DNA from: Candidatus Fermentibacteraceae bacterium
Lineage (GTDB): Bacteria > Fermentibacterota > Fermentibacteria > Fermentibacterales > JCC-6
Direction: 5' to 3'
Assembly: GCA_030596465.1 (NCBI GenBank)
Contig: JAUVJW010000002.1
Span: forward strand, 1 to 39,949
Length of the DNA: 39,949 bases
Part shown: one piece after another, positions 9,276 to 39,949 of the stretch
Numbering within the stretch: position 1 is the first letter of the stretch
How the letters are laid out: each line of letters opens with the position of its first letter
Program-made: the position numbers and the translations under genes
The notes under the pieces: generated by a model
Told to the model about the DNA's origin: nothing
The model's input: the letters and a program-made list of their open reading frames with translations, nothing else
The model's database searches: none

Positions 9276-10360
9276 AGGAGACTCCTGTAGAAATTCATGG
9301 CTTTTTCTCCTGTGTCTTTCCATGTAATTCTGGAAGCGGTTTCCGCCTTTTCTCTTAGACTGTCCGCAATAACTCCATTAGCCATTTCCCTGATTGACCT
9401 TACCCATGGTTCTTTTTCAAGTACGGGAAGAATTAATCCGTTTTTACCGACAGTCTCCGGCAGTGCCCCTCCATCAGAGGAAATAACCGGTGTGTCGCAG
9501 GCAAAAGCCTCAAGTACGGGTAAACCCAGCCCTTCGCTGCTGCTGGGAAGAAGCAGAGCGGTGGCGCCCCTGTAAAGCGAGAGAAGCTCGTTGTCGGAAA
9601 CATTTTTCAGAAATACGACTCCCGCGGTGTTTTCAACAATCTCATCCCCCCACTTTTCTGCACCGGCAAGAACAAGCTTCTTATCTGTCCCGGCTTCCCT
9701 AAAGCAACGGATAAGAAAGGGGATGTTTTTCCTGGGTACATAACTGCCTGCATGAAGAAAATAGTTGTCTGTCGCGAGATTAAACTTATTAAGAATTTCC
9801 ATATCCGGTTTTCCAGGGGTAAATATTTCTTCTGCCGCGCCATCCGCATAACCGACTCTTTCCGGAGAGATATCAAAAAGATTCTGCGCAATGGAAGCAG
9901 CCCAGCTGCTTATGGCAAGAACTGCCGCTCCGGAATCTATAAGATTTTTCAATTTGTCTGCGTAAAACAAGGTCTCTCGGGTATGAGATTCCGGTGAAAC
10001 CCAGGGTGTATCATCAAAAAAAGTAACAACCTTGTGTCTTCCGTAACCTTCCGGCTGAACGCCGGACAGGTGAATAATGTCAGGTATTCCCACTGCCTTT
10101 TCAATCCTTGACGATCTGCTCTTTTCCAGCATTCCATGACTCAATAGAATTCGTCTGATCAACGGCAACCTCATCCATAACGGTGGTGGAATAACGGTGG
10201 CGTCCGGTACAGTACAGATGTGTCCGGGATGGGTTTCAGCAGCATCAATGGAGATATGATCTCTGCTTATCCGGAAAAGACCGTTTGAAAGACCTCTGAC
10301 CCACCTCCCGACTCCGCCTCTGCTGTGAGTGCATACCGTAATATCAAGAACTGTCCTCAT
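9272..10360 (-). CDS. glycosyltransferase family 4 (GT-B fold)
   Basis: The ORF track gives 9272..10378. The internal ATG at 10360 (MRTVLDITV...) forms an ATGA overlap with the upstream stop. C-terminal motif SSSEGLGLPVLEAFACDTPVISSDGGALPETVG. Confidence 0.8.
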   Translation of the reverse strand: MRTVLDITVCTHSRGGVGRWVRGLSNGLFRISRDHISIDAAETHPGHICTVPDATVIPPPLWMRLPLIRRILLSHGMLEKSRSSRIEKAVGIPDIIHLSGVQPEGYGRHKVVTFFDDTPWVSPESHTRETLFYADKLKNLIDSGAAVLAISSWAASIAQNLFDISPERVGYADGAAEEIFTPGKPDMEILNKFNLATDNYFLHAGSYVPRKNIPFLIRCFREAGTDKKLVLAGAEKWGDEIVENTAGVVFLKNVSDNELLSLYRGATALLLPSSSEGLGLPVLEAFACDTPVISSDGGALPETVGKNGLILPVLEKEPWVRSIREMANGVIADSLREKAETASRITWKDTGEKAMNFYRSLL

Positions 10361-13009: not shown

Positions 13010-13725
13010 CTTGATATCCCTTGCCAGCTTCTCAATCTGAAAGCAACCAACTGCCTGAACATCTCATAGATAGGACCGATTTTTACAAACGCAATAAATC
13101 CGCTTCTTGCACTTTCAAAAGAAACTGTTCCGGCACGCCTGTTGTAGTGACTCACCGGTAACTGTTTAACCCTGTAGCCCATATCACGAGCTAAAGTAAG
13201 GATTTCAAAGTCAATCACTCCACATGTGGATTCAGGTCTGACATCTTTGAAAATCGATGATCTGTACAGCTTGAAAGATGAATCTACATCTTTGAAGCCT
13301 CTGAGAAAAAGCATAAGTGTCAGTGTGTTCCATAGCAACGAATAGCCGAGACGCATACCGGGATCTTTTCGGTTCCTTCTGAAGGCGGATACAATATCGG
13401 CGCTCTTGCGTCTTTCCCATACAAGATCAAGTTCCTCGAGATCGAACTGACCATCGCAATCAGTGTAGAATATCCACTCTTTCTTTGATTGCTCTATTCC
13501 TGTTCTCACCGCCCTGCCGAATCCAAGATTGTTCCGGTGTGATATCAGTCTTATTCGGGAATCATTTTTCGACATTGATCTGGCTACTGATGCTGTACTA
13601 TCGGTAGAGCCATCATCTACTACTAGAATTTCCCAATTCTTTCCCACAACCCTGTCCAGTGCTTTTCTGGCACTTGAAACCATGTATTCAACATTTTCTT
13701 CCTCGTTGAATGCAGGAAAAAACAA
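13006..13725 (-). CDS. glycosyltransferase family 2, polyprenol-phosphate glycosyltransferase type (DPM1/ArnC/GtrB/CsbB-like)
   Basis: 239-aa ORF with a TTG start preceded by GAGGGA. Motifs FPAFNEEEN...ILVVDDGSTDST...NLGFGRAV...YTDCDGQFDLEEL...DVDSSFKLYR are typical of the soluble-domain polyprenol-P sugar synthases. It is the first gene of the overlapping string. Confidence 0.75.
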   Translation of the reverse strand: MFFPAFNEEENVEYMVSSARKALDRVVGKNWEILVVDDGSTDSTASVARSMSKNDSRIRLISHRNNLGFGRAVRTGIEQSKKEWIFYTDCDGQFDLEELDLVWERRKSADIVSAFRRNRKDPGMRLGYSLLWNTLTLMLFLRGFKDVDSSFKLYRSSIFKDVRPESTCGVIDFEILTLARDMGYRVKQLPVSHYNRRAGTVSFESARSGFIAFVKIGPIYEMFRQLVAFRLRSWQGISR

Positions 13726-24950: not shown

Positions 24951-27506
24951 TCATTTCTTCTCCGAAGCAAATGCTCTTTTTACCCGGGTCAGAAACATTT
25001 TTCTTCTTATCGGTTTTCTTATGTAATCAAGCGCGCCCAGTTCATATCCTCTTTCTTCCTTGTCCATGCTGTCATTGCCTGTCAGAAAGATCAGAGGCGT
25101 ATCCAGATTTTTGCTTTTCAGTGCCTGGAGCATTGTAAACCCATCCAGCCCGGGCATCTCTATGTCAGATAATACAAGATCGTAGTTGCTTGTTCTAAGG
25201 GTAACTATGGCTTCCACTCCATCTGTTGCCTGATCAACATCGTAACCGGCGGTTTCCAGAAGTATCGAAGCAAGATTTCTGAAATCCTCATCGTCATCAA
25301 CAAGAAGTATCCTTTTCTTCCTGTCTTTATCGTTGTCCAGACCTCTGGACTCCAGTTCGTTATCTGTGCGTCCGGTAAGTCTCAGTTCTTCCAGCAGAAC
25401 ATGTCTATACACATCATCAAGAGCGAGAAGCCCCATTCTTACCTTCATTATGGCATGATCGCTTATGAGAAAAACCCCGGCTTTCTCCTGAAGCTCTCTC
25501 CTCATTACCGGAACCGACTCCGCGTGTTTAATAATTTCAGTTACGGCAGGATTAAACCTCATCAGCTCATAAACACCCTGTCTACCGGCATATCCGGTAA
25601 AATTGCATTTGGGACACCCCTCAGGATGAGGCAACTCCTTTGGAATGTCATCTGTAAAGGGAAGCAGCTTTTTTCTTTCTTCGGGGGTAACAGGCTTCAT
25701 CCTTCTGCATCTCTGACACAGGCTCTTCAGAAGTCTTTGAGCCACAATACAAAGCAGATTATCAGCGGAATCATCTTTTGATATTCCCAGCCGGGAAAGT
25801 CGGAACAAGGCAGTGGAGGTATTTGAACTATGCAGAGTAGCCATGGTCAAGTGACCCGTACTGGCAAGATCGATACAGGTTTTTGCACTGAAAGCATCTC
25901 TGATCTCACCCAGGTAAACAATGTCGGGATCCTGACGAACCGCTGACTTCAGGAGGGCTTCAAATGTAACGCCTGCCTTCTCGTTAACCTGCTGCTGATT
26001 GGCATAGGGAATTCTGTACTCCACCGGATCCTCAATGGTCATAAGACTTCTGCTTTTGATATCCAGGTGGGATATCATACTGTACAGAGTTGTTGTTTTT
26101 CCACTTCCTGTAGGACCAACAACTATAATAGCACCGCTGGTCTGACTGGACACCTCGTAAAGATCTCCGGACTGTTCTTCGGTCATACCAAGCTCGGTGA
26201 GTTCACGAGGTTTCGCGTACAGATCAAGCATTCGCACAATAAGGCTTTCACCCTGTGGAGTGGAGGTTGTAGCAAAACGCATTTTGAAGGGTTTTCCACC
26301 GATATTCGCCTCTGCCGTACCATCCTGAGGTTTTCTTCTCTCGGCAATATCCATACCGCCAAGAACTTTGAAACGGCTGATAAGAACTGCACCTGTCCTT
26401 TTCTTCAGTGTGAACATATCCTTCATGTCTCCGTCAACACGAAACCTCACAAGAACCTTATCAGGCTTAGGCTCGATATGAATATCGCTTGCTCTTTCGG
26501 CTACGGCAGAGAATAAAATACTGTCGGAAATGTACCTGATAGGGAACTTCCTGATATCATCTTCCGATGGCTTCTCCATAATTTCAAGAGAGCTGCTTAT
26601 ATCGGCGGCATCATCTTCAGGCGTACTTTTTTCTTCGTCCTCCTCCCCTATATCGGCAAATGCGGAGTCCGGGCCGTGTGATTCCTCTTTGCGCAACAGA
26701 GCATCAATGCAGTCAGGGCAGGTTATTCCCAGTAATGGTGCTCTACCCGTGAGAGATTCCAGCATCTCAATAAGCTGTGGTTCATAAGGATTGGAGACAA
26801 CAAAGCGAAACTCATCCTTTTCCCTGAGTGCAAGAACTCTGTGTGCTTTGGAAAATGCCGCCGGCAGCATATCACTCTCCACGGATTCGGGGTCAATGTA
26901 GGGATAATTCGGAAGATGAAGATAAGATGAAAGAAGCTTTGCTGTCTCAATGCTGTCAAGACCAATATCAAGTGTTTTCTCGTAAATATCTCTGGGCTGC
27001 GCCAAACTGAGTGTGGCGGTATCCTCCCGGGACAGGCTTGAATTATCTCTCAAATACTCAATAAAACCCTGAATATCCTGTAGCCGCGTGGAAGGTGTCG
27101 GATTATCAAGTCTGCCCCATTTCTCTGATCTGTCAAGAACTTTCTTCACCTTGGCGCGGAGTGTTTTTCTGTTCAGCTCTGATTTAGGTACAAAATCCGC
27201 TACGCCTGCGTTAAGGGCATCCCGTCTTGTTTCATCATCAGCCCTGCTGGTTATCATGATTACCGGAATTCTTGAAAGAACTCTATCGGACTGAAGACTC
27301 GCGCAAAATTCAAGCCCGTTCATTCCCGGCATGAGAAGATCAAGAAGGATAACGCTGATTACGCTGCTCTGCAGCATCCCCATAGCAGTGGCCGCACTCT
27401 CCGCAGTTTCAGTTTCATAACCTGCTTTCCGGAGGATATGGGATAGCAACAGTCTGGTATCCTCATCATCATCTATAATGAGGATTTTTTTATTCTTCGT
27501 CGACAT
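24951..27506 (-). CDS. REC - T2SSE_N-like - GspE/PilB-family secretion ATPase - REC fusion protein
   Basis: 851-aa ORF. N-terminal REC is ILIIDDDEDT...LLDLLMPGMNG...DFVPK. ATPase core has Walker A GPTGSGKTTT, Asp box LMTIEDPVEY, Walker B DPDIVYLGEIRD, His box TGHLTMATLHSSN and tetra-Cys CQRC..CPKC. C-terminal REC is ILLVDDDEDF...VLSDIEMPGLDG...DYIRKP. Confidence 0.85.
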   Translation of the reverse strand: MSTKNKKILIIDDDEDTRLLLSHILRKAGYETETAESAATAMGMLQSSVISVILLDLLMPGMNGLEFCASLQSDRVLSRIPVIMITSRADDETRRDALNAGVADFVPKSELNRKTLRAKVKKVLDRSEKWGRLDNPTPSTRLQDIQGFIEYLRDNSSLSREDTATLSLAQPRDIYEKTLDIGLDSIETAKLLSSYLHLPNYPYIDPESVESDMLPAAFSKAHRVLALREKDEFRFVVSNPYEPQLIEMLESLTGRAPLLGITCPDCIDALLRKEESHGPDSAFADIGEEDEEKSTPEDDAADISSSLEIMEKPSEDDIRKFPIRYISDSILFSAVAERASDIHIEPKPDKVLVRFRVDGDMKDMFTLKKRTGAVLISRFKVLGGMDIAERRKPQDGTAEANIGGKPFKMRFATTSTPQGESLIVRMLDLYAKPRELTELGMTEEQSGDLYEVSSQTSGAIIVVGPTGSGKTTTLYSMISHLDIKSRSLMTIEDPVEYRIPYANQQQVNEKAGVTFEALLKSAVRQDPDIVYLGEIRDAFSAKTCIDLASTGHLTMATLHSSNTSTALFRLSRLGISKDDSADNLLCIVAQRLLKSLCQRCRRMKPVTPEERKKLLPFTDDIPKELPHPEGCPKCNFTGYAGRQGVYELMRFNPAVTEIIKHAESVPVMRRELQEKAGVFLISDHAIMKVRMGLLALDDVYRHVLLEELRLTGRTDNELESRGLDNDKDRKKRILLVDDDEDFRNLASILLETAGYDVDQATDGVEAIVTLRTSNYDLVLSDIEMPGLDGFTMLQALKSKNLDTPLIFLTGNDSMDKEERGYELGALDYIRKPIRRKMFLTRVKRAFASEKK

Positions 27507-30500
27507 ATTCTATTCGAACGGTGTTAAGGTATTTTTCGAGTTCATCAATCCCCAAAAGAATTTCAGAGCCATCCCGAGATTTTGCCGCAATCTCCATGAC
27601 AGCCCCCAGGTGTGTTATTTTATCAAACCCGTAACCACCCCCGGAACCCTTCATGCTGTGTGCAAGTCTCTGGGCCTCTGAATAGTCATCATCCTGAACA
27701 AGTTGTCTGATTACAGCAACATCTGTTCGTCTGTTTTCTAAATACCCCGGGATCAGAGACTCAAGATCCATTGGAACAAGAGCAGTAGGACCATGAACAT
27801 TTTCAGCAGACTCAAGCATCTCAACTGAAGTTCCCTTTCTGTCAGTTGACAATTCCGGTATACCTTCACGAGGGCCCATAATTTTCAACAAATCATCAAG
27901 TTTTTCCAACAGACTCTTTTTTCTCACAGGCTTTGAAATATGGATATCACAACCGGCATCAATGCACTTCTGCACCTCTTCTTGAAGCGCATGGGCGGTA
28001 AGAGCCGCAATAGGTATATGTTCGCTCATGGAAATTGATTCGTGGGCTCTTATGGATCTTGTTGCCTCATATCCGTCTATAACAGGCATCTGCATATCCA
28101 TCAGTATGAGATCAAACTTACTCTTCAAGTAGCAATCAAGAGCTTCCTGTCCGTTAACTGCCACGGTGATCTCCCAGGGAAAAGCCTCTGTGTATTTCAT
28201 AATAAGGAATCTGTTATCCGGTGAATCTTCTGCCAGTAGAACCGAAAGTTTCCTTTTCTCTATATCATACCCGGCTTTTATATGTAATATATCTGATTCT
28301 TCAGCCGTAACTGTGCCGTCAAGAACATTCATTATACGCTTTTTGAGATCATCTCTTCGCACCGGTTTGAATATGAAATGGTCAATGCCTGACAATCTGC
28401 ATTTGTCGATATGAGCATTGCTGCTTTCGCGGGTGAGCATCATTATTACATTGCTGATTATGATCTTATCCCTCTTCATGGAATCAACGATCTCAAACCC
28501 ATTCTTATCAGGCAAAATGTGGTCAAGAAAAATTACATCGTATTCTGTATCCCTTACCATTCCAGGCACAGGAATGCCACAATCAGCCAGATCAACAGAA
28601 GCGCCAAGGTTCTCAAGAATCTCCCTGAGTATTATCCTGTTATTCCTGTTATTATCCGCAACAAGAATACGCTTACCTGAGAGGTTCACGGGCTGAACCG
28701 GGAGGTGATCAAATGAATCAATTTCAGGCAGATCGCAGAAAAACGCAAATGAACTTCCCGAACCAACTTTACTGGTAACAGATATCTCCCCACCCATGAG
28801 ATCAACAAGTCTGGTACAGATGGCAAGCCCAAGCCCGGTACCTCCGTATCTTCTGGTGTGTGATGAATCCGCCTGTGTAAAACTCATAAATATTGCTTCT
28901 ACCTTGCCCTCTGGAATGCCAATTCCTGTATCGGTAACTGAAAAATTTATTCTGTCCTTGTCGAAAGGTTTAACTGCTACAGCAATTTCTCCTTCGGAAG
29001 TAAATTTAATTGCATTGCCAACAAGGTTAATAAGCACCTGCTTTAACCTGGAAGGATCACCCAATACCCATCCGGGTGTCTCCGGGTGGATTCGGCAATT
29101 CAGTTCAAGCCCCTTTTCATGGGCTCTCAGTGCAAGAGTTTCACAGGTATTTTCAATCTCCTCATAAAGATCAAATGGGATTTTTTCAAGCTCAATCTTT
29201 CCAGCCTCAACTTTGGATATATCAAGAATATCATTTATCAGATCAAGAAGGTTATCACTTGCGTTTTTACTTACTCTTAAATAACTCTTCTGTACGGATG
29301 TCAGGTCTGTTTCCAGCATTAAATCTGTAGTGCCGATAATAGCATTCAAAGGTGTTCTTATCTCATGACTCATATTTGCCAGAAACTCTGACTTTGTTCT
29401 GGTAGCGTTCAGGGCACCCTCACGAGCCTCGATCAGTTCCAGTTCAATTCTCTTTCTTTCAGAAATATCTCTTAATATTCCAGTTGCCTGCCATCCGCCG
29501 TTCAGAAAGAAAGACGAAACAGAAAGTTCAACAGGGAACATCGTTCCATTCTTGCGTCTTCCTTCCATTTCAACCACACGCCCAACCATCATGCCTTCAC
29601 CGGTTTTTCTGAACTTGTTGAATCCCATTTCAATCATTTCCCAGTATAGTTCAGGTGCAATAAGCTTGTGAAGCATCTTTCCAATGGTTTCTGATCTACG
29701 GTATCCGAACATCATTTCTGCCGAGGAATTAAAAAAGGTAACACGGCTATCGGAATCAATGATGATCACGGCATCCTGGGCTGATTCTGTAATTGCCTTG
29801 AATTTAATCTCATTCTCTCCGAGTAATTTCAGAATTGAATCTCGATCAGAGAGATCTGTGTAGACTCCCACTGCTCCCTGATTTTCTCCGTCAATAACTA
29901 TTGGAGCAACCGATACAAAAACACTTTTTTCCTGTTTGCTTTTCCCCCGCCTTGTGCATTCAAGCCCTCGAATTACATGCCCGTCTACTATGGCCTTCGA
30001 GGATATCTCATTCTTCCCTGTTTCCGTGCCAACCAGGTTATCAAGCAGCTGTCCCATGGCTTCATCCACTGTCCAGCCAAACAATTCAACGGCTTCTCTG
30101 TTCCAGCTGGTAACCCTGCCCAGTGCGTCAATTGTAACCACCGCGTCGGGCACGCTTTCAACTACTTCACGGAAATACAGACTCTGCTTGTGTATCTCCT
30201 TCGCCAGTCTTTGTTCTTCACTGATATCAGAAATAATCCCCTCGTAGTATCGAGGATTTCCCTGGCGGTCAAATACGACATGCATTGAACCACGGGCAGT
30301 AAATACCCCTTCATTCTTTCTCTTCAAATCAATTACAAAATCTCTCACCCGTCCATTTTTTCGCAGAGCGAGCATTAACTGATCCCCCTGGGCTTCAGTG
30401 ACATAATAATTAGTCAGGGATGTACCAATAACTTCTTCACGCGTAAAACCACTGAACTCAAATATTGAAGGTGTTACATTAATAACTACTCCGGTCATGG

Positions 30501-30870
30501 AAATCTTACAGTAAAGATCATCCATCTCGTTGAAAATCCTGCGGAGTTCACCACTATCTGAATCTCCGGCAACACTGTTGATGTTAAATGAAACAATTTT
30601 ACAGGTAATACCTTTTATATCCGCGAGCTGAGTTTGTACTTCTGTGCCCGATTTCAACAGTTCCTTGAGCACACTCTCAACGGTATCTCCTAAAATATCT
30701 GATGATTCCCTGTTTAAAGCATTGCAAAGCAATTCGTTAACCTTGATAATCCTGTCATTCTCGCCTGACGCTATTAATGCGCATATACCACCACCACTGA
30801 GAATCTGCAAAAGCGATTCATGTACAGAACTCTCCAGTACTGAATTGTTCTCTGGTTCTGATATGGACAT
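27490..30870 (-). CDS. cytoplasmic hybrid sensor kinase: multiple PAS - HisKA - HATPase - REC - REC - Hpt
   Basis: 1126-aa ORF with no TM segment seen. There are several PAS-like repeats (for example VTFFNSSAEMMFGYRRSE). H-box FLANMSHEIRTPLNAIIG, G2 GGTGLGLAI. Two REC domains (VIFLDHILPD and LILMDMQMPVIDG). C-terminal Hpt AHSMKGSGGGYGF. Confidence 0.85.
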   Translation of the reverse strand: MSISEPENNSVLESSVHESLLQILSGGGICALIASGENDRIIKVNELLCNALNRESSDILGDTVESVLKELLKSGTEVQTQLADIKGITCKIVSFNINSVAGDSDSGELRRIFNEMDDLYCKISMTGVVINVTPSIFEFSGFTREEVIGTSLTNYYVTEAQGDQLMLALRKNGRVRDFVIDLKRKNEGVFTARGSMHVVFDRQGNPRYYEGIISDISEEQRLAKEIHKQSLYFREVVESVPDAVVTIDALGRVTSWNREAVELFGWTVDEAMGQLLDNLVGTETGKNEISSKAIVDGHVIRGLECTRRGKSKQEKSVFVSVAPIVIDGENQGAVGVYTDLSDRDSILKLLGENEIKFKAITESAQDAVIIIDSDSRVTFFNSSAEMMFGYRRSETIGKMLHKLIAPELYWEMIEMGFNKFRKTGEGMMVGRVVEMEGRRKNGTMFPVELSVSSFFLNGGWQATGILRDISERKRIELELIEAREGALNATRTKSEFLANMSHEIRTPLNAIIGTTDLMLETDLTSVQKSYLRVSKNASDNLLDLINDILDISKVEAGKIELEKIPFDLYEEIENTCETLALRAHEKGLELNCRIHPETPGWVLGDPSRLKQVLINLVGNAIKFTSEGEIAVAVKPFDKDRINFSVTDTGIGIPEGKVEAIFMSFTQADSSHTRRYGGTGLGLAICTRLVDLMGGEISVTSKVGSGSSFAFFCDLPEIDSFDHLPVQPVNLSGKRILVADNNRNNRIILREILENLGASVDLADCGIPVPGMVRDTEYDVIFLDHILPDKNGFEIVDSMKRDKIIISNVIMMLTRESSNAHIDKCRLSGIDHFIFKPVRRDDLKKRIMNVLDGTVTAEESDILHIKAGYDIEKRKLSVLLAEDSPDNRFLIMKYTEAFPWEITVAVNGQEALDCYLKSKFDLILMDMQMPVIDGYEATRSIRAHESISMSEHIPIAALTAHALQEEVQKCIDAGCDIHISKPVRKKSLLEKLDDLLKIMGPREGIPELSTDRKGTSVEMLESAENVHGPTALVPMDLESLIPGYLENRRTDVAVIRQLVQDDDYSEAQRLAHSMKGSGGGYGFDKITHLGAVMEIAAKSRDGSEILLGIDELEKYLNTVRIEYVDEE

Positions 30871-30873
30871 TAT

Positions 30874-31437
30874 CTATCCTTTTCCGTCTGTATATCCGAT
30901 AGCCTCCTTGACCATTTTCGAAAGAGAGTCTGCACTGAACGGTTTTCGTAAAAAACCTTGAAGTTCAAGGCCGCCAAACCGTCTGCGGATCTCCTCTTCT
31001 CCGTATCCGGTCGTCAGTATAATCCCAAGTTCAGGAGAAGATCGTCTCAGTTGCCTGAATGTCTGCATACCATCAAGTCTCGGCATAACAAGATCAAGAA
31101 TAACACATTTTATGAGATCCCTGTTCTGCTCATAAACCCCGAGGGCCTCGATGCCATCGCAAGCTGTAAGCACCTCGTACCCTTCTCGTTCAAGTATTTG
31201 CTTCCCTATTCTTCGTATAATTTCCTCATCATCTACAAACAACACCGCGGAACCACTACTGGATTGATTCTTTTCCGGGGATAAAACATTAATAACATGT
31301 CGAACCTCCTTCAGCGCCTCAGTAAGCTCGGTACGCATTACTCCCTTGGTCTGAGTAGCTACGAATGCGATTCTTCTTTCCGCTCTTTTCAGTTTCTCCA
31401 GCAAGACTTCCGTGACCAAAAATCCTCCTTCCTGCAA
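30874..31437 (-). CDS. response regulator, REC domain with ~60-aa helical N-terminal extension, no output domain
   Basis: 187-aa ORF. REC motifs VLFVDDEEIIR...VILDLVMPRLDG...ILTTGYG...FLRKPF. The start is uncertain: the track uses TTG at 31437, but GGAAGGAGGA lies inside the ORF just before a TTG at 31419. Confidence 0.75.
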   Translation of the reverse strand: MQEGGFLVTEVLLEKLKRAERRIAFVATQTKGVMRTELTEALKEVRHVINVLSPEKNQSSSGSAVLFVDDEEIIRRIGKQILEREGYEVLTACDGIEALGVYEQNRDLIKCVILDLVMPRLDGMQTFRQLRRSSPELGIILTTGYGEEEIRRRFGGLELQGFLRKPFSADSLSKMVKEAIGYTDGKG

Positions 31438-35187: not shown

Positions 35188-35252
35188 TTATATTCAACTC
35201 CGTTCGCCGCAATTTATTGTTTTGACCTGTGTTCTTTTATGGAGGTAATATT

Positions 35253-36086
35253 ATGCCTGACCGCAATGTCGGTACAAGGGTAGGGGTTTATGTAGATGTT
35301 TCCAATCTCACCATGAACGGTGGATACGGTATGCGATACGAAGTTCTAAGAGAATTTGCATGCCGAAACGGAGCCCGTCCAGTTCGTCTGAATGCCTATG
35401 TAAGCTTCGATGAAGTTCGCGCAAGAACAGATTTTGACTATCGCGACAAACAGAGAAGGTTCCACAGCGCCCTCCGGGATATGGGTTTCAAGGTTATCCG
35501 TAAAATAGTCAAGTGGTACACCGATGAGACCGGGGCCAGGTTCGGCAAAGCCAATGTGGATCTCGACCTTGCAGTAGACGCGCTTCTTCAATCGGATAAA
35601 CTTGATAAGGTTCTTATCGCCACTGGTGACGGTGATTTTGTCAGAGTAATAAGTACCATACAAAACAAAGGATGCAGGGTAGAAGTTCTTGGCTTTGATA
35701 ATGTATCCCGTGAACTCCGCGATGAGGCCGATCTCTACATTTCAGGTTACCTTGTACCCAATCTCCTTCCATTTAAAGGGCTGGATGACTACTCCAGGTG
35801 GGGCGAAAAAGGTTCCTTCGTCAGAGGTGTCTGCGTGAGCCATGAGAAAGGCTTCGGCTTCTTCAGGTTCATGGATACTTTCAATGGTGAATTATGGCTT
35901 ATTGATAACAGAGATCCAAAGTCGCCTTATGAAAACATCTTCTTCCACGATTCAAACCTTCCAGGCAGTGTGGATTACCACAAGCTGCCAGACAGAGATA
36001 TGATATTTGAATTTGAAATTACAGATGGAACTGACCCTGGAAAAACACAGGCAATCAACATAGGAAGTTTCAGAGCTCTCACTTGA
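35253..36086 (+). CDS. NYN (LabA/PIN-like) nuclease domain fused to C-terminal cold-shock/OB-like domain
   Basis: The ORF track gives 35229..36086 with a GTG start. The ATG at 35253 lies 8 nt after GGAGG. NYN motifs are VGVYVDVSNL, NVDLDLAVDAL and LIATGDGDF. The C-terminus has RGVCVSHEKGFGFFRF...IFFHDSNL...MIFEFEI, which is CSD-like. Confidence 0.7.
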   Translation: MPDRNVGTRVGVYVDVSNLTMNGGYGMRYEVLREFACRNGARPVRLNAYVSFDEVRARTDFDYRDKQRRFHSALRDMGFKVIRKIVKWYTDETGARFGKANVDLDLAVDALLQSDKLDKVLIATGDGDFVRVISTIQNKGCRVEVLGFDNVSRELRDEADLYISGYLVPNLLPFKGLDDYSRWGEKGSFVRGVCVSHEKGFGFFRFMDTFNGELWLIDNRDPKSPYENIFFHDSNLPGSVDYHKLPDRDMIFEFEITDGTDPGKTQAINIGSFRALT

Positions 36087-36106
36087 TTCGAAGAAGCTCT
36101 TCATAA

Positions 36107-37240
36107 TTAGCATTTCTTCAGTGTAACTGTAAAAGTTGATCCAGCATCAGGGGTGCTGTCAACGGTAACTTCTCCACTGTAAAGAGATGCTGTTTTTCTC
36201 ATAATGGAGAGGCCGAGACCACTTCCCAGAATATTTCTTGTTTTGGCGTTCCTGATCCTTACGAACTCACCGAAGAGTTTCTCCACTTCCTCTTCCGACA
36301 TTCCAATTCCTGTATCGGTAACTGCAATTCGAATCTGATCCGGCATATCCAGAACATTTACCGCAACGCTGCCATTGTCTCTGTTGTATTTCACTGCGTT
36401 CGAGATAAGGTTGTTGAATATGATTTCAATTTCCCCGCTGTCAGCGGTAATGACAGCCTTTTCAGAACTGGATTCAAGAGAAATGGTGATGCCCCGTCTG
36501 TCTGCGTCAGGTTTCATCGTTTCCATGCTGTTACGGGCACACTCAAGAACATCAATATCGGAAAGTTCTCTCTTCTTCTGTCCGGATTCAAGTCTCGTTA
36601 GATCAAGCAGGTCATATATGAGTTTCCGCATACCGCCAAGCCGTATAAGGCTTCTTTGCACCACCCTGTCGTGAACATCAGGATCATCCATTCCAATGCC
36701 ATCGCGGAGCAGGTACAAATAGCCTTCAATGGCGCCAAGAGGAGCTTTCAGCTCATGGGCAAGCACACTGATAAACTGAAATCTTACCCTTCTCTTTTCC
36801 CGTTCAAGCTCACGAGCCTGCCTGAGAGCTACCAGATGAGCGGCCGCCTGCCTTACTGATACCTTCAGCTCCGCTGGAGTAAATGGCTTGGGTAAAAAGT
36901 CATAGGCTCCCTGCTTTGTAGCAGCAATTGCCGTCTCTATTGAAGCATATGCGGTTATCATAATCGCCATAAGATCCAGCTCATTTTCATTAATCCAGTG
37001 GAGAACATCTATTCCTGAAATTCCACCCATTTTGTTGTCAAGCAACACAATATCAGGTGAGGATTCCTTCATAAGAAGAATGGCCTCTTCCCCGGAAGCA
37101 GCCTCCGAAACATCCAATTTGACGAGTTCTCCCGTGTCCTTGGTTTCCATCGAGAAATGCCTGAGGGATCGTTTTACCCCCATACGCATCCCTTCCTCGT
37201 CATCAACAATAAGGAGTGAAAGCCGTTTTTCTTCAGCCAT
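36107..37240 (-). CDS. REC-HisKA-HATPase protein (receiver-regulated histidine kinase)
   Basis: The ORF track gives 36107..37255 with a TTG start. The ATG at 37240 (MAEEKRLSLLIVDDEEG) starts 1 nt after the upstream TAA. REC motifs are VLLDNKMGGISG and DFLPKPF. H-box SVLAHELKAPLGAIEG, G2 GSGLGLSI. Confidence 0.85.
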   Translation of the reverse strand: MAEEKRLSLLIVDDEEGMRMGVKRSLRHFSMETKDTGELVKLDVSEAASGEEAILLMKESSPDIVLLDNKMGGISGIDVLHWINENELDLMAIMITAYASIETAIAATKQGAYDFLPKPFTPAELKVSVRQAAAHLVALRQARELEREKRRVRFQFISVLAHELKAPLGAIEGYLYLLRDGIGMDDPDVHDRVVQRSLIRLGGMRKLIYDLLDLTRLESGQKKRELSDIDVLECARNSMETMKPDADRRGITISLESSSEKAVITADSGEIEIIFNNLISNAVKYNRDNGSVAVNVLDMPDQIRIAVTDTGIGMSEEEVEKLFGEFVRIRNAKTRNILGSGLGLSIMRKTASLYSGEVTVDSTPDAGSTFTVTLKKC

Positions 37241-37241
37241 A

Positions 37242-37631
37242 TTACCGGCTCTCAATCTTCTTCAGTTCTTCCTCTATCTGTTCGAACCTTACAGGCTTGG
37301 AAAGAATGGCATCCGCGTTGATCCAGCCGGAGGAATCGTTCCCGCCCGGAAACTCAATACCGGTTTCACCGGTAACATTTGTGACCATGATAACAGTGCA
37401 ATCTGGAAATTTTTTCTTCAGGCGGTATGCAAGCACAAATCCATCATCATCGTTTTCCATCATCAGATCAATAACCGCGATATCCGGTGTGTACGAATCA
37501 AATATCTCCTCGGCTTCCCTTCTTCCAGGAGCTGTTACCACCTCGTATCCCCGGGAAGAAAACATTATTTCAGTTTGCGACAGGAAATCCGGGTCATCGT
37601 CTACAACAAGAACTCTCTTTACATCAGTCAT
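37242..37631 (-). CDS. single-domain response regulator (REC only)
   Basis: 129-aa ORF with motifs VLVVDDDPDF, AVIDLMMENDDDG, IMVTNVTG and ILSKPV. Confidence 0.85.
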   Translation of the reverse strand: MTDVKRVLVVDDDPDFLSQTEIMFSSRGYEVVTAPGRREAEEIFDSYTPDIAVIDLMMENDDDGFVLAYRLKKKFPDCTVIMVTNVTGETGIEFPGGNDSSGWINADAILSKPVRFEQIEEELKKIESR

Positions 37632-37646
37632 CAGGTATCTCCTTTA

Positions 37647-39641
37647 TCAGTTTGCGGGTCCTCTTCTGGGAAGAGTAACCGAAAATGTTGTTCCTGTGGC
37701 TCCCGCTTCGGGATCTGTATTGGAATCAACCGTTATCTGCCCCCGGTGCATCTTCACAATACCATATGTCACGGCCAGACCCAGACCGGTACCTTCTCCC
37801 ATGCTTTTAGTGGTAAAGAAGGGCTCAAATATTTTTTTCAGATTCTCTCTGGGAATCCCGGTTCCTGTATCGCTAACGGATATTGTAACCATATCAGCAT
37901 CTCCGCCGGTCTTCACCGTGAGTATGCCGGAGTTCCCCATAGCCTGAAAAGCATTGGTGGAAAGATTCGTTAAAACTTGTGCTATCTGATCCTCATCCAG
38001 TTCAGCATACGGTTCTATGTCTTCACTGATAAACTGCAGCTGGATACCATCAGGGCGGTTAATCACACCTGTTACCTTGCGAATCAGTTCCGGAACATTT
38101 ACCAGTGTTCGAGTAACCTTGTTCTGTCTCGCGAAGTCAAGAAGACCGGCAACGATCTTCTTGCACCTGTCAGCATGTACTGTAATTGTCTTCAGATCAT
38201 CCCTCAGGTCTTCATTATCAGGATTCTCTTCCAGCAGAGTATGAGCGAACATCAGAACAACACCAAGAGGATTGTTGACCTCATGCGCAATTCCTGCGGC
38301 GAGCTGACCCATATCAGCCATTTTTTCAGCGTGCTTCAGCGCGACCCTGGTACCCGCAAGTTCATCATGAGTCAGGGCCAGTTCTTCAACGGTATTTTTC
38401 AACTGATCAATAGAGTATGGAAGACACATCTCGCTTTCTGCAAGACCTTTGTATATGGCGATTGCGTGTTTTCTGCATGTTTCATAACCGCAGGCGCCAC
38501 AGTTCAATTCATCCTCAATGGTGAACTTGCCCATTCTCTCCATTATCCGGTTGACCTCAATCTCACTGGGTACTTTCAATCTCATATCCGAGGGGGTAAA
38601 TTCCCTTTTAAGGTCTATGTCGGCACATCTCTCAGAAACGATATTCCATGCATTGAAATTAACTTTTTCAAGACTCTCTCTTGCGTATCTGCTTATTTTC
38701 GCCCTGCGCCTGAAGATAGGTGCTTTGCTGGTCATGCCCGGACCCATAATACACCCCTGACAACACAGGACTTCCAGAAGTCGAGCCTCCATATCGCCGG
38801 ATGCAAATTCCATGACCGCCTCAACAAAGTTGTTCTTTCCGTCCGCGGTAACAATTTCTCCTGAAACAAGATCTTCCTGCATGTCCGCGGCCTGAAGCAT
38901 CCCCCGGTTAATGGGAAAAAGGGTTCCCAGCCCGGGAGTGGGCGGATTAAAACCGCTTTCCTCCACTTTCTCTGGATCAATTCCGTTTATCGCCAGCAGA
39001 TTTCTCATCTCAGCAAAAGTGAGTGTTGCCGTGACATCCTCCCCCGTTTCCTCCTCGGCCTCACCCTTCTTCGCTATACACGGCCCGATGAAAACTATCT
39101 CTGTTTCCTGTCCGTACAACTTTTTCACAACTTTGGCTTCAGCAACCATGGGTGAAGCAATAGGGGCGAGATGGGAAACCAGCTCGGGAATGTACTTCTC
39201 AACATAGCTCACCACTGCCGGGCATGAAACTCCAATAAATCTTTTTTCGGGATTGTCACTCAGCAACTTCTTGTAGGCATGAGCAACAAGATCAGCACCA
39301 AAGGCAACCTCACAGACATACCCGAAGCCGGCAGCCCTCAACATACCCACTAATTTCTCCGGGGAAACCTCGACAAACTCCGCCGGGAAACTGGGTGCGA
39401 TAACAGCAGCAATCTTTTTCCCTGAGGCGAGAAGTTCTGTTACCTGTACTATGGATCCCACAGGCCTTTTTGCGCCGCGGGTGCAGACTCGAACACAGTT
39501 CCCGCAACCGATGCAGCGGTCATCAATAACCTCTGCCTGACCGCCGGTGATTCTTATCGCCTTGGCGGGACATTCGCGAACGCAGGTGTAACACATCTTG
39601 CACTTGTCGGGAATTGTCTGTACCAGAGGGGAGTTTCTCAT
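37647..39641 (-). CDS. [FeFe]-hydrogenase-like sensor histidine kinase (2x[4Fe-4S] ferredoxin + H-domain-like + Cx2Cx4Cx16C FeS module + HisKA + HATPase)
   Basis: The ORF track gives 37647..39749. The ATG at 39641 (MRNSPLVQTIPDKCKMCYTCVRECP) starts 1 nt after the hydrogenase stop. Cys motifs are CIGCGNCVRVC, GVSCPAVV, IGPCIAKKGE and LEVLCCQGCIMGPG, plus CGACGYETCRKHAIAIYKGLAESEMC. H-box GIAHEVNNPLG, G2 GTGLGLAV. Confidence 0.75.
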   Translation of the reverse strand: MRNSPLVQTIPDKCKMCYTCVRECPAKAIRITGGQAEVIDDRCIGCGNCVRVCTRGAKRPVGSIVQVTELLASGKKIAAVIAPSFPAEFVEVSPEKLVGMLRAAGFGYVCEVAFGADLVAHAYKKLLSDNPEKRFIGVSCPAVVSYVEKYIPELVSHLAPIASPMVAEAKVVKKLYGQETEIVFIGPCIAKKGEAEEETGEDVTATLTFAEMRNLLAINGIDPEKVEESGFNPPTPGLGTLFPINRGMLQAADMQEDLVSGEIVTADGKNNFVEAVMEFASGDMEARLLEVLCCQGCIMGPGMTSKAPIFRRRAKISRYARESLEKVNFNAWNIVSERCADIDLKREFTPSDMRLKVPSEIEVNRIMERMGKFTIEDELNCGACGYETCRKHAIAIYKGLAESEMCLPYSIDQLKNTVEELALTHDELAGTRVALKHAEKMADMGQLAAGIAHEVNNPLGVVLMFAHTLLEENPDNEDLRDDLKTITVHADRCKKIVAGLLDFARQNKVTRTLVNVPELIRKVTGVINRPDGIQLQFISEDIEPYAELDEDQIAQVLTNLSTNAFQAMGNSGILTVKTGGDADMVTISVSDTGTGIPRENLKKIFEPFFTTKSMGEGTGLGLAVTYGIVKMHRGQITVDSNTDPEAGATGTTFSVTLPRRGPAN

Positions 39642-39642
39642 A

Positions 39643-39949
39643 CTATTTGAGAACCTCCCGGTTTGAGTAGAATGTATGCAGCATCTCGTGCGCAATATGA
39701 CTGCCGGGTTTCTCCAGATGATCATCATAGAGCTTCTGCAGTGAAACATTCGAGTGTGCGGTTCTCACAGATGCTGATGAATCAATATTGTAAAGTGCCA
39801 TCATTCTTGACCGAATTACCTTCGGGTCAGAGGTAAATGGCTGCCCTCCCCCCGCAATACACCCGCCGGGGCAGGTCATAACCTCCACAAAATGGTATGT
39901 CTTCTCACCGGCAAGTATGCTGTCAATCAGCTTTCTTGCGTTACCCAAT
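39643..39949 (-). CDS. [FeFe]-hydrogenase catalytic subunit, C-terminal ~100 aa (5' part outside window)
   Basis: The frame is open to the window edge. H-cluster L3 motif YHFVEVMTCPGGCIAGGGQP is followed by a small-subunit-like tail RSRMMALYNID...LYDDHLEKPGSHIAHEMLHTFY. Confidence 0.8.
   Translation of the reverse strand, partial: LGNARKLIDSILAGEKTYHFVEVMTCPGGCIAGGGQPFTSDPKVIRSRMMALYNIDSSASVRTAHSNVSLQKLYDDHLEKPGSHIAHEMLHTFYSNREVLK

What the first reader, a model, noticed from the sequence alone, without database searches (positions are those of the whole stretch)
36107..39949. [FeFe]-hydrogenase gene followed directly by a hydrogenase-domain histidine kinase, a lone REC and a REC-kinase: candidate H2/redox-sensing multi-step phosphorelay
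Seen in sequence:
- The partial CDS at 39643-39949 carries the H-cluster L3 motif (VEVMTCPGGCIAGGGQP) and a small-subunit-like tail.
- One nt after its TAG stop, an ATG at 39641 opens a 664-aa protein. It has a 2x[4Fe-4S] ferredoxin motif, an H-domain-like core, a Cx2Cx4Cx16C module and a complete HisKA/HATPase transmitter.
- A 129-aa stand-alone REC follows after 15 nt, then a REC-HisKA-HATPase protein after a 1-nt gap.
- Every REC keeps the DD / D / T / K signature residues.

Established knowledge: putatively sensory (group C) [FeFe]-hydrogenases are recognised by classification, and Thermotoga HydS has been studied spectroscopically.

I know of no characterised case in which the H-domain is fused to a kinase transmitter and feeds a two-tier REC / REC-kinase relay.

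Inference: H2 or redox state sets kinase activity. No DNA-binding or enzymatic output domain is encoded here, so the terminal target lies elsewhere.
Basis: partly seen in the sequence, partly recalled or inferred. Interest (0 to 1): 0.75.

Follow-up and report, generated by a model that had tools for sequence, protein, structure and literature searches.

The report
Hydrogenase-like sensor kinase beside a hydrogenase
A histidine kinase whose sensing part is a hydrogenase-like domain sits directly after a hydrogen-producing enzyme gene and before two partner signalling genes; this arrangement recurs in hundreds of anaerobic bacteria, belongs to a class already named but never tested, and offers a direct way to test whether such proteins really sense hydrogen.

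Summary
On the minus strand lie four tightly packed genes:
- the 3' end of a [FeFe]-hydrogenase gene (hydA);
- a 664-aa protein with 2x[4Fe-4S], an H-domain, a Cx2Cx4Cx16C module, HisKA and HATPase_c;
- a 129-aa lone receiver (REC);
- a 377-aa REC-kinase.

The gaps are 1, 15 and 1 nt.

It is not a one-off. At least 574 species genomes from more than ten phyla encode 51-89% identical full-length homologues. The cassette rex-hydC-hydB-hydA-sensor kinase-REC-REC-kinase is conserved. REC-kinase follows the sensor in 68 of 71 loci, and hydA precedes it in 57 of 68.

The H-domain keeps all four H-cluster cysteines plus the Lys358, Glu361 and Ser232 equivalents. It lacks the proton-relay residues, as the studied HydS proteins do, and its L3 loop is one residue shorter.

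The most likely function is an H2-responsive kinase that starts a two-kinase cascade. There is no HPt domain, so this is not a classical phosphorelay. No output domain is encoded locally.

The class already exists as HydDB group C1, "histidine kinase-linked, putative". The kinase fusion was noted in Hydrogenedentota in 2024. No member has been characterised.

Verdict: a new member of a known but untested kind. Interest is moderate, because the fused kinase gives H2 sensing a direct readout.

The parts
39643..39948 (-). 3' end of hydA, the catalytic [FeFe]-hydrogenase subunit. It carries the L3 motif VEVMTCPGGCIAGGGQP and a small-subunit-like tail. The CDS runs off the window end. Stop TAG at 39643-39645.
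   Evidence: Pfam Fe_hyd_lg_C positions 213-245 (E 2.2e-10) and Fe_hyd_SSU (E 2.1e-19). The best NCBIfam model is NF040763, group A6 NADH-dependent. The full-length orthologue L001:7959-9674 passes that model's cutoff, 785 vs 765 bits.
37647..39641 (-). Sensor histidine kinase with a hydrogenase-like input module (HydS-type, fused to a kinase), 664 aa.
   Evidence: Pfam. 62-sequence alignment with 57-90% identity. AF2 model with mean pLDDT 80 and H-domain pLDDT 90-95. Foldseek: residues 1-430 match [FeFe]-hydrogenases (E 3e-20) and the C-terminus matches the ZraS kinase core (E 7e-19).
39471..39614 (-). N-terminal 2x[4Fe-4S] ferredoxin-like domain (residues 10-57; two CxxCxxCxxxCP motifs).
   Evidence: Fer4 E 1.5e-09, Fer4_10 E 7.6e-09. 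All eight Cys are invariant or at least 90% conserved.
38739..39419 (-). H-domain (residues 75-301).
- L1: SCP, C140 = CpI C300.
- L2: GPCIAKKGE, C188 / K191 / E194 = C355 / K358 / E361.
- L3: EVLCCQGC, C294 / C297 = C499 / C503.
- The C299 position is Ser, M353 becomes Gly, M497 becomes Leu.
- A 5-residue deletion removes the position where the neighbouring HydA has IEEAN (the E279/E282 region; CpI numbering assigned from published motifs, since CpI itself was not aligned).
   Evidence: Fe_hyd_lg_C E 1.9e-46. Alignments to TmHydA and TkHydA and to the cassette HydA. Invariant columns. Survey of 150 representatives.
38424..38501 (-). C-terminal Cx2Cx4Cx16C cluster motif (C381, C384, C389, C406), typical of HydS-type proteins.
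   Evidence: PF04060 FeS E 2.2e-08. All four Cys are invariant in 62 sequences. The motif is described for M2e/M2f HydS in PMC8163306.
38124..38312 (-). HisKA dimerisation/phospho-acceptor domain (residues 444-506). Phospho-acceptor His453 is at 38283-38285. It is reached from C406 by one predicted continuous helix (residues 407-472).
   Evidence: HisKA E 3.9e-15. H453 and the AAGIAHEVNNPLG box are invariant. Helices H407-424 and H426-472 in the AF2 model.
37662..37997 (-). HATPase_c catalytic domain (residues 549-660) with N, G1, F and G2 boxes.
   Evidence: HATPase_c E 4.6e-26. N559/N563, D591-G593-G595 and G617-G621 are invariant. The closest named kinases are AtoS and ZraS.
37242..37631 (-). 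Stand-alone receiver protein (REC1, 129 aa). Phospho-acceptor D55 is at 37467-37469. It has no output domain.
   Evidence: Response_reg E 8.2e-16. DDD/D55/T84/K112 are conserved in 73 orthologues. A stand-alone receiver lies next to the sensor in most loci, either after it or, in a variant, before it.
36107..37240 (-). REC-kinase (REC2-HisKA-HATPase_c, 377 aa).
- Receiver: residues 10-129, D68 at 37037-37039.
- HisKA: residues 155-220, H162 at 36755-36757.
- HATPase_c: residues 267-375.
- The receiver is its only input domain.
   Evidence: Pfam. All receiver and kinase catalytic motifs are conserved in 74 orthologues. It follows the sensor in 68 of 71 loci. The receiver is most like AtoC, LuxO and NtrC receivers.

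Best explanation
The 664-aa protein is a cytoplasmic sensor histidine kinase whose input module is a HydS-type, non-catalytic [FeFe]-hydrogenase domain. It is co-transcribed with the NADH-linked HydABC hydrogenase of an obligately fermentative Fermentibacterota bacterium (closest named relatives: Candidatus Sabulitectum).

**Proposed mechanism** (steps marked as shown or inferred):
1. The H-domain binds an H-cluster matured by HydEFG. Inferred from conserved ligands.
2. H2 binds and is oxidised slowly, because the proton relay is missing. This changes the state of the H-cluster and its accessory clusters. Inferred by analogy with TmHydS and TamHydS.
3. The change passes through the C-terminal cluster domain. 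Its last ligand, C406, starts a continuous helix that runs into the DHp helix carrying His453 and sets autokinase or phosphatase activity. The structure is predicted; the effect is inferred.
4. The phosphoryl group goes to Asp68 of the REC-kinase, whose only input is that receiver, and switches a second kinase. Inferred from near-obligate co-occurrence and matching family types.
5. The second kinase acts on the lone receiver REC1 and/or on an unlinked regulator. REC1 may serve as output adaptor or as phosphate sink. Inferred.

**Likely physiological role.** The system would tell the cell when H2 has accumulated so far that NADH-driven H2 production becomes unfavourable. Hydrogenase and fermentation pathways would then be re-tuned, alongside the NADH/NAD+ sensor Rex that heads the same cassette. 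The sign of the response (H2 activates or inhibits) cannot be told from sequence.
For: **Domain content and fold.**

**Active-site conservation (62 homologues, 57-90% identical).**
- The four H-cluster Cys equivalents are invariant, as are K191 (K358), E194 (E361), A82-P83-S84 (S232) and the four Cys of the C-terminal motif.
- The same residues are kept at about 88-100% in 150 more distant representatives.

**HydS-like signature.**
- C299 is replaced. Five residues are deleted at the site where the neighbouring HydA has IEEAN (taken to be the CpI E279/E282 site). M353 becomes Gly as in TmHydS, and M497 becomes Leu as in TamHydS.
- Literature values are in PMC8163306.

**Operon structure.** Gaps of 1, 15 and 1 nt, with no promoter-like sites above chance.

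**Synteny in 80 species genomes from more than ten phyla.**
- REC-kinase lies downstream in 68 of 71 loci.
- hydA lies directly upstream in 57 of 68.
- Full rex-hydC-hydB-hydA lies upstream in 38 of 57.
- See; the Fermentibacterota relatives are.

**The module is used as an input domain.** Among the 150 nearest 50%-cluster representatives, 46 are fused to HisKA/HATPase, 16 directly to sigma54 enhancer-binding domains, and about 38 to PAS domains.

**Family-level pairing.** The sensor transmitter is most like AtoS/ZraS. REC2 is most like AtoC/LuxO/NtrC receivers.

**Maturases and Rex.**
- A radical-SAM gene (HydE/HydG-like by size and, in 5 cases, a BATS domain; maturase identity not confirmed) follows the cassette in 18 of 32 same-strand cases.
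- Rex operators lie upstream of rex in 24 of 55 loci, against about 0.004 expected per locus by my estimate.

**Ecology.** Ca. Sabulitectum is described as a strict anaerobe that ferments to H2 and acetate (bioRxiv 10.1101/146886).
Against: - No member of this fused family has been purified. H-cluster insertion, H2 reactivity and H2-dependent kinase activity are all untested.
- The L3 motif deviates from every characterised [FeFe]-hydrogenase. It has C-x-G-C (two residues between the Cys) instead of C-x-x-x-C, and GPG instead of GGGQP.
- The authors of PMC11406978 could 'hardly' find the H-cluster motifs in their C1 proteins and left H2 sensing open.
- In TamHydS the C-terminal [4Fe-4S] cluster is not reduced under 1 atm H2. 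That argues against a simple redox relay through this cluster (PMC13104023).
- The wiring among the two kinases and two receivers is not resolved. A mutual-information test across 58 cassettes did not discriminate the four possible pairings.
- No output regulator is identified.
- hydEFG are not in this window.
Confidence: 0.6

Rival explanations
1. Redox or Fe-S sensor, not an H2 sensor. The H-domain has lost the [2Fe] subcluster, as in eukaryotic Nar1/NARF-type hydrogenase-like proteins, or uses it only structurally. The kinase then reads the reduction state of its four or five Fe-S clusters, which are fed by ferredoxin, and so reports the cellular ferredoxin or NADH redox state.
For: - The L3 loop is one residue shorter than in any characterised hydrogenase, and GGGQP is lost.
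- The proton pathway is absent.
- Three [4Fe-4S] motifs besides the H-site are invariant.
- The cassette also carries the redox sensor Rex.
- H-cluster motifs were reported as hard to find in C1 proteins (PMC11406978).
Against: - Residues that contact the [2Fe] subcluster's CN ligands in CpI are retained: the K358, S232 and E361 equivalents, at about 88-100% across 150 distant relatives. Such retention is not expected if the subcluster were lost.
- The characterised relatives TmHydS and TamHydS, which share the missing proton relay and the M353/M497 changes, do bind an active H-cluster (PMC8163306).
- The gene is linked to hydA and often to radical-SAM genes that look like hydE/hydG.
Confidence: 0.2
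2. Oxygen or oxidative-damage sensor. The O2-labile H-cluster or Fe-S clusters are destroyed or converted on air exposure, and this switches the kinase so that a strict anaerobe shuts down or protects its hydrogenase.
For: - TamHydS shows unusual O2 reactivity, forming a stable Hair state (PMC8163306).
- The host lineage is a strict anaerobe with few oxidative-stress defences (10.1101/146886).
Against: - Nothing in the cassette relates to oxidative stress.
- The conserved neighbours are hydrogenase subunits, Rex and HydE/HydG-like radical-SAM proteins.
- A dedicated [2Fe]-site environment would not be needed for an O2-labile cluster switch.
Confidence: 0.07
3. Extra catalytic or electron-transfer subunit of the HydABC complex. 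The kinase part would act only secondarily, for example by regulating the complex through direct binding.
For: - The sensor gene starts 1 nt after the hydA stop, which suggests translational coupling.
- One Antarctic-lake study raised a possible metabolic role for a C1 protein encoded with bifurcation subunits (PMC8542988).
- PMC11406978 treats the related C3 proteins as a 'T subunit'.
Against: - The proton-relay residues needed for fast turnover are missing.
- A complete, conserved HisKA/HATPase transmitter and two dedicated receivers follow.
- Some loci carry the sensor with REC-kinase but no adjacent hydrogenase: 7 of 68 have nothing related upstream, and 2 have only Rex.
Confidence: 0.05

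Closest known systems
HydDB [FeFe]-hydrogenase group C1, 'histidine kinase-linked (putative)' (Sondergaard, Pedersen and Greening 2016, PMC5037454). C1 proteins with a HATPase_c domain were reported in Hydrogenedentota (PMC11406978).
   Same: - A hydrogenase-like protein associated with a histidine kinase and proposed to sense H2.
- Frequently next to group A3-type trimeric hydrogenase genes.
- The loci include 53-57% identical homologues in Hydrogenedentota MAGs (L013, L022, L034, L038, L045, L056, L070). Among them is isolate CSSed162cmA_463, which that paper names.
   Different: - The class is defined only by sequence clustering and neighbourhood.
- According to PMC11406978, the best-matching C1 reference in HydDB lacks the HATPase_c domain, so there the kinase is a neighbour rather than a fusion.
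- I found no description of the conserved REC plus REC-kinase pair, the rex-hydCBA cassette, or the C-x-G-C L3 variant.
- I could not run the HydDB classifier.
HydS-type putative sensory [FeFe]-hydrogenases: Thermotoga maritima TmHydS (M2f, group C, with PAS) and Thermoanaerobacter mathranii TamHydS (M2e, group D). Sources: PMC8163306, PMC13104023.
   Same: - N-terminal 2x[4Fe-4S], H-domain and C-terminal Cx2Cx4Cx16C cluster.
- No Cys299 and no group-A proton pathway.
- M353 becomes Gly as in TmHydS; M497 becomes Leu as in TamHydS.
- Encoded next to group A hydrogenase genes.
   Different: - No PAS domain. The cluster domain is joined by a single helix of about 45 residues directly to a HisKA/HATPase transmitter.
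- The L3 Cys spacing is C-x-G-C in 45 of 46 kinase-fused representatives. It is the canonical C-x-x-x-C in 59 of 88 non-fused relatives.
- The signalling partners of TmHydS and TamHydS are unknown. Here they are fused or adjacent.
Ruminococcus albus HydS system (Zheng et al. 2014, as discussed in PMC6776011).
   Same: A putative H2-sensing [FeFe]-hydrogenase encoded with fermentative hydrogenase genes. It is thought to adjust hydrogenase and fermentation gene expression to the H2 level in an obligate fermenter.
   Different: The R. albus protein has a PAS domain and works with a Ser/Thr phosphatase (HydDB C3 type), not with a His-Asp two-component pathway.
[NiFe] group 2b regulatory hydrogenase systems: HoxBC-HoxJ-HoxA in Ralstonia eutropha and HupUV-HupT-HupR in Rhodobacter capsulatus (PMC5665086; details from my own knowledge).
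   Same: It works alike: a slow, non-energy-conserving hydrogenase reports H2 to a histidine kinase, which controls hydrogenase gene expression through an NtrC-family receiver.
   Different: - The metal site and protein fold are unrelated ([NiFe] versus [FeFe]).
- Sensor and kinase are separate proteins joined through a PAS domain.
- There is one kinase and one DNA-binding regulator. Here there are two kinases and a lone receiver.
Multi-kinase 'four-component' two-component systems such as Myxococcus xanthus RedCDEF (my own knowledge, not checked here).
   Same: A cluster encoding two kinases and receiver-only proteins without a DNA-binding output. One kinase is controlled by phosphorylation, and a single-domain receiver acts as output or sink.
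   Different: There is no sequence relationship beyond the generic HisKA and REC domains, and the input signal is different. The wiring here is untested.

Membership tests
Putative sensory [FeFe]-hydrogenase (HydS type; Greening group C / Calusinska M2e-M2f) | [quoted passage not shown] | tested here: met
   Fer4 / Fer4_10 at residues 10-57. The Cys are conserved.
Putative sensory [FeFe]-hydrogenase (HydS type; Greening group C / Calusinska M2e-M2f) | H-domain with the four Cys ligands of the H-cluster (CpI C300, C355, C499, C503) | tested here: met
   - Fe_hyd_lg_C E 1.9e-46 over the full model.
- C140, C188, C294 and C297 are invariant in 62 homologues.
- Fold match to CbA5H, TkHydA and CpI.
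- Caveat: the spacing C294-x-x-C297 is one residue shorter than canonical.
Putative sensory [FeFe]-hydrogenase (HydS type; Greening group C / Calusinska M2e-M2f) | Loss of the proton-relay Cys299 and of the group-A proton pathway; altered Met353 and Met497 | tested here: met
   - The C299 position is S/T/N/P/A.
- A 5-residue deletion removes the position where the neighbouring HydA has IEEAN (assigned to E279/E282 from published motifs; CpI not aligned).
- M353 becomes Gly (invariant) and M497 becomes Leu.
- See; reference values in PMC8163306.
Putative sensory [FeFe]-hydrogenase (HydS type; Greening group C / Calusinska M2e-M2f) | C-terminal Cx2Cx4Cx16C [4Fe-4S] motif | tested here: met
   C381, C384, C389 and C406. 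PF04060 E 2.2e-08. Invariant.
Putative sensory [FeFe]-hydrogenase (HydS type; Greening group C / Calusinska M2e-M2f) | PAS domain after the C-terminal cluster (M2f / TmHydS type only) | tested here: not met
   No PAS family at E <= 0.01. Only about 35 residues of predicted helix lie between the FeS motif and HisKA. It is therefore not an M2f/TmHydS-type member.
Putative sensory [FeFe]-hydrogenase (HydS type; Greening group C / Calusinska M2e-M2f) | Binds a functional H-cluster and reacts with H2 | not testable with these tools
   Needs expression, maturation and FTIR/EPR.
HydDB group C1 (histidine kinase-linked) | Association with a histidine kinase | tested here: met
   HisKA and HATPase_c are fused in the same polypeptide. 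A second kinase is encoded two genes downstream.
HydDB group C1 (histidine kinase-linked) | Assignment by the HydDB k-NN classifier or a phylogeny with reference C1, C2, C3 and D sequences | not testable with these tools
- Indirect evidence: PMC11406978 classed HATPase_c-bearing Hydrogenedentota proteins as C1, and this family has 53-57% identical members in that phylum.
HisKA-type sensor histidine kinase (both kinases) | H-box His plus N, G1, F and G2 boxes | tested here: met
   Pfam HisKA and HATPase_c hits for both proteins. H453 and H162 and the ATP-lid motifs are conserved in orthologues.
Classical multi-step His-Asp-His-Asp phosphorelay | An HPt (or Spo0B-like) phosphotransfer domain carrying the second His | tested here: not met
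   None of the four proteins has an Hpt hit. The second His lies in a complete kinase.
Receiver (REC) domains capable of phosphorylation | Acidic pair, phospho-acceptor Asp, Thr/Ser and Lys | tested here: met
   REC1: D11/D12, D55, T84, K112. REC2: D13/D14, D68, T96, K118. All are conserved in 73 and 74 orthologues.
HydABC-type NADH-linked [FeFe]-hydrogenase operon under Rex control | hydC (NuoE-like), hydB (NuoF-like) and hydA, with rex and a Rex operator | tested here: inconclusive
   - Only the last 101 codons of hydA are in the window.
- In the 85-90% identical relatives L001 and L003 the genes rex, hydC and hydB precede hydA.
- Rex operators were found in 24 of 55 loci, but not in the three Fermentibacterota loci at <= 2 mismatches.

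The most novel reading that the evidence does not exclude
The conserved seven-gene cassette may be a self-contained H2/NADH homeostat with no DNA-binding response regulator of its own. After the kinase cascade, the phosphorylated lone receiver (or the REC-kinase) would act directly on Rex or on the HydABC complex. H2 partial pressure and NADH/NAD+ ratio would then be integrated at one promoter or one enzyme.

Rex stays next to the sensor even in two loci that lack hydCBA between them (L015, L023). No regulator with a DNA-binding domain is conserved in the cassette.

A second novel element is that the C-x-G-C L3 loop, shared by the kinase-fused and sigma54-fused forms, might hold an H-cluster in a geometry tuned for sensing.
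Probability: 0.1. Interest if true: 0.8.

Novelty: new member of a known kind. Interest (0 to 1): 0.5.

Why it matters
Whether group C/D [FeFe]-hydrogenases really are H2 sensors is still open, and so is how a signal leaves them. Recent work calls the role putative (PMC8924675). It also states that finding the interaction partners is critical, after showing that the C-terminal cluster of TamHydS does not respond to H2 (PMC13104023).

In this family the output is fused to the sensor. H2 sensing could therefore be read directly as autophosphorylation and phosphotransfer to two adjacent receivers.

The cassette occurs in hundreds of uncultured fermenters and syntrophy-prone anaerobes, including Planctomycetota, Hydrogenedentota, Myxococcota, Acidobacteriota and Fermentibacterota. 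It may therefore be a common way for H2 producers to sense product build-up in sediments and digesters.

Tried and rejected
- **Kinase-receiver wiring by covariation.** I computed APC-corrected mutual information between DHp and receiver interface columns in 58 complete cassettes. The four pairings scored alike (top-10 means 0.149-0.172), so the test is inconclusive.
- **Internal promoters and terminators, 35900-39949.** Counts were at or below shuffle expectation, so this is uninformative beyond being consistent with one operon.
- **The 700-aa ORF from ATG 39749.** Rejected. It overlaps hydA, and the homologues start at the 39641 equivalent.
- **A PAS domain or HPt domain.** None found.
- **hydEFG or a plausible output regulator in the window.** Not found.
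  - The NtrC-type regulator at 372-1637 has its own kinase next to it and sits in a glycosyltransferase cluster.
  - The REC / PAS-kinase / T2SSE genes at 24951-31437 are separated from the finding by five genes in mixed orientation.
- **Literature searches.** I searched for a description of the fused kinase plus REC plus REC-kinase cassette, and of sigma54 fusions. Only the HydDB C1 label and the 2024 Hydrogenedentota note turned up.
- **HydDB classification and a phylogeny with TmHydS/TamHydS.** Not possible, because the reference sequences are not retrievable here.

Full report
**Observation.**

The region 36107-39949 carries four minus-strand genes that are almost contiguous.
- The partial CDS 39643-39948 ends a [FeFe]-hydrogenase catalytic subunit. 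It matches positions 213-245 of Fe_hyd_lg_C (E 2.2e-10) and Fe_hyd_SSU (E 2.1e-19).
- One base after its TAG, ATG 39641 opens a 664-aa protein. Pfam finds two Fer4 motifs (residues 10-57), a full-length Fe_hyd_lg_C match (75-301, E 1.9e-46), PF04060 FeS (379-408), HisKA (444-506) and HATPase_c (549-660).
- After 15 nt with an AAGGAG ribosome-binding site comes a 129-aa stand-alone receiver.
- After 1 nt comes a 377-aa REC-HisKA-HATPase_c protein.

The signature residues of both receivers are present.

**Whose genome and what operon.**

The closest homologues (85-90% identical) come from Candidatus Sabulitectum / Fermentibacterota assemblies. This lineage is described as strictly anaerobic, obligately fermentative and H2-producing (10.1101/146886).

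Their longer contigs show what lies beyond the window edge: rex, hydC (NuoE-like), hydB (NuoF-like, 664 aa), hydA (572 aa), then the sensor kinase, REC and REC-kinase. A convergent NYN-domain gene follows, as in the window. The relatives' HydA passes the NCBIfam cutoff for 'NADH-dependent [FeFe] hydrogenase, group A6', and Rex passes its own model.

**Distribution and synteny.**

The best 80 cover the whole 664 residues at 51-89% identity. They come from Planctomycetota, Hydrogenedentota, Myxococcota, Acidobacteriota, Lentisphaerota, Fibrobacterota, Marinimicrobia, Krumholzibacteria, Verrucomicrobiota, Sumerlaeota and others.

I mapped the cassette proteins onto these loci by tblastn.
- 68 of 71 loci with enough downstream sequence have a REC-kinase after the sensor. 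In 43 the order is REC then REC-kinase, exactly as here.
- 57 of 68 have hydA immediately upstream. In 11 of those, the lone REC sits between hydA and the sensor instead of after it.
- 38 of 57 loci with enough sequence have the whole rex-hydC-hydB-hydA block, and 9 more have hydCBA without rex.

Other cassette features:
- The gene after the REC-kinase is a radical-SAM protein in 18 of 32 same-strand cases, 5 of them with a BATS domain. By size and domain these look like HydE/HydG maturases, but I did not confirm that with maturase-specific models.
- Canonical Rex operators (TTGTGAAnnnnTTCACAA, at most 2 mismatches) lie 40-150 nt upstream of rex in 24 of 55 loci. By my own estimate, chance would give about 0.004 per locus.

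The neighbours are thus conserved as a unit.

**The sensor module.**

The evidence comes from three alignments: 62 homologues, solved hydrogenases, and the cassette's own HydA. CpI residue numbers below are assigned from the published motifs; CpI itself was not aligned here.
- The four H-cluster ligands are invariant: C140, C188, C294 and C297, equivalent to CpI C300, C355, C499 and C503.
- The Lys358, Glu361 and Ala-Pro-Ser232 equivalents, which surround the [2Fe] subcluster, are also invariant.
- The proton-relay Cys299 position is S/T/N/P/A.
- Five residues are deleted where the neighbouring HydA has IEEAN, which I take to be the Glu279/Glu282 region.
- Met353 is Gly, as in TmHydS. Met497 is Leu, as in TamHydS.
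- The Cx2Cx4Cx16C motif is invariant.

These are the hallmarks reported for the studied putative sensors (PMC8163306).

One deviation stands out. L3 reads E-x-L-[C/A]-C-x-G-C-I-M-G, one residue shorter between the two Cys than in characterised enzymes. This probably explains why the Hydrogenedentota study could 'hardly' find the signature motifs in its C1 proteins (PMC11406978).

An AlphaFold2 model (mean pLDDT 80; H-domain 90-95) superposes on CbA5H, TkHydA, DdH and CpI over about 430 residues. Its C-terminus superposes on the ZraS kinase core. The model places the last cluster ligand, C406, at the start of a continuous helix that runs to the phospho-acceptor His453. No PAS or HPt domain is present.

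**Is the module a sensor?**

An exhaustive search of 1.84 billion cluster representatives with residues 1-420 gave 1071 hits at E <= 1e-30. I examined the best 150.
- All 150 have the H-domain, and 141 have the FeS motif.
- 46 carry HisKA/HATPase.
- 16 are fused directly to a sigma54 enhancer-binding ATPase with an HTH domain.
- About 38 carry PAS domains.

A module that is repeatedly joined to signalling outputs is behaving as an input domain.

The C-x-G-C spacing is found in 45 of 46 kinase-fused and 14 of 16 sigma54-fused representatives, but in only 26 of 88 others. So the two fused forms share this feature.

**The relay.**

Both kinases keep all catalytic boxes, and both receivers keep their phospho-acceptor residues in 73-74 orthologues. 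The REC-kinase has no input domain other than its receiver. It is also the near-obligate partner of the sensor (68 of 71 loci). The lone REC is common but dispensable and can change position.

The sensor's transmitter is most similar to AtoS/ZraS. The REC-kinase's receiver is most similar to AtoC/LuxO/NtrC receivers. The second transmitter resembles PnpS/PhoR.

I therefore favour this wiring: sensor kinase to REC2, then the second kinase to REC1 or an unlinked regulator. It is an inference. A covariation test could not discriminate the pairings. Because no HPt domain exists, 'two-kinase cascade' describes it better than 'multi-step phosphorelay'.

**What is already known.**
- The Hydrogenedentota study reports 53 C1 genes, 21 beside A3 hydrogenase genes, with a HATPase_c domain that the best HydDB reference lacks (PMC11406978).
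- An Antarctic-lake study notes C1 genes next to kinase genes (PMC8542988).
- Reviews and recent biochemistry still call the sensory role putative and the partners unknown (PMC8924675; PMC13104023).
- I found no description of the REC plus REC-kinase pair, the full cassette, the L3 variant or the sigma54 fusions.

**Verdict.**

This is a real, intact and strongly conserved system. It is best read as an H2-responsive, hydrogenase-domain histidine kinase feeding a second kinase and a lone receiver, co-transcribed with an NADH-linked HydABC hydrogenase.

It is a new member of a kind that is recognised by classification but untested. Its interest is practical rather than surprising: the fused kinase offers a direct assay for a question the field still lists as open.

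The main uncertainties are:
- whether the shortened L3 loop still holds an H-cluster;
- the sign of the response;
- the wiring among the two kinases and two receivers;
- the final output.

Noticed in passing
L001:7959-9674 and the hydA genes of L005-L084 (upstream of the window's partial hydA at 39643-39948): The cassette HydA carries TSCSPGW instead of the canonical L1 motif TSCCPxW in 68 of 71 cases. In CpI numbering, Cys300 (a [4Fe-4S]H ligand) would be Ser, or the register is shifted. The variant was mentioned once, for Melainabacteria ACD20 (PMC3787301). This HydA passes the NCBIfam 'NADH-dependent, group A6' model.
   Followed up: partly
P0152, P0161, P0163, P0172, P0176-P0179, P0196, P0197, P0206, P0216, P0229, P0248, P0255, P0264 (relatives, not in the window): In 16 of the 150 nearest representatives, the same 2x[4Fe-4S]-H-domain-FeS module is fused directly to a sigma54 enhancer-binding ATPase with an HTH_8 domain (730-883 aa). 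These would be one-component candidate H2-responsive transcription activators. I found no literature on them.
   Followed up: partly
L006, L009, L017, L042, L043, L046, L050, L054, L063, L071, L072, L074, L077, L078, L082 and others, directly after the REC-kinase: In other phyla the cassette continues with radical-SAM genes. Those of about 350 aa are HydE-like, and those of about 470 aa with a BATS domain are HydG-like. This holds in 18 of 32 same-strand cases; maturase identity was not confirmed. In this window a convergent NYN-domain gene (35229-36086) follows instead, and no hydEFG is present in the 40 kb.
   Followed up: partly
L006, L008, L017, L047, L050, L052, L058, L060, L066, L070, L079, L082 and others, 40-150 nt upstream of rex: Near-perfect Rex operators (TTGTGAAnnnnTTCACAA) precede rex in 24 of 55 loci. 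None was found at <= 2 mismatches in the three Fermentibacterota loci.
   Followed up: partly
L017, L025, L042, L043, L050, L060, L061, L072, L074, L081: This is a cassette variant. HydB is much longer (a 1085-aa ORF in L017), and the lone REC lies between hydA and the sensor rather than after it.
   Followed up: no
L015 and L023: Rex lies immediately upstream of the sensor with no hydCBA in between. Rex therefore stays linked to the sensor-kinase module even without the hydrogenase genes.
   Followed up: no
window 24951-31437 (minus strand): A second signalling cluster lies here. It comprises a 187-aa receiver protein (30874-31437), a 1126-aa ORF (27490-30870) syntenic with a PAS-HisKA-HATPase-REC hybrid kinase in relatives, and an 851-aa protein with two Response_reg stretches plus MshEN and T2SSE domains (24951-27506). 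It is separated from the finding by five genes in mixed orientation.
   Followed up: partly
window 372-13725 (minus strand): An NtrC-type sigma54 activator (372-1637) and a histidine kinase (1637-3268) adjoin a run of glycosyltransferase genes (3265-13725), several with no Pfam match. This shows the organism uses sigma54-dependent regulation.
   Followed up: no
window 39641-39749: The mechanical ORF list extends the sensor ORF to an ATG at 39749 (700 aa), overlapping the end of hydA. Homologue N-termini support the 39641 start.
   Followed up: yes
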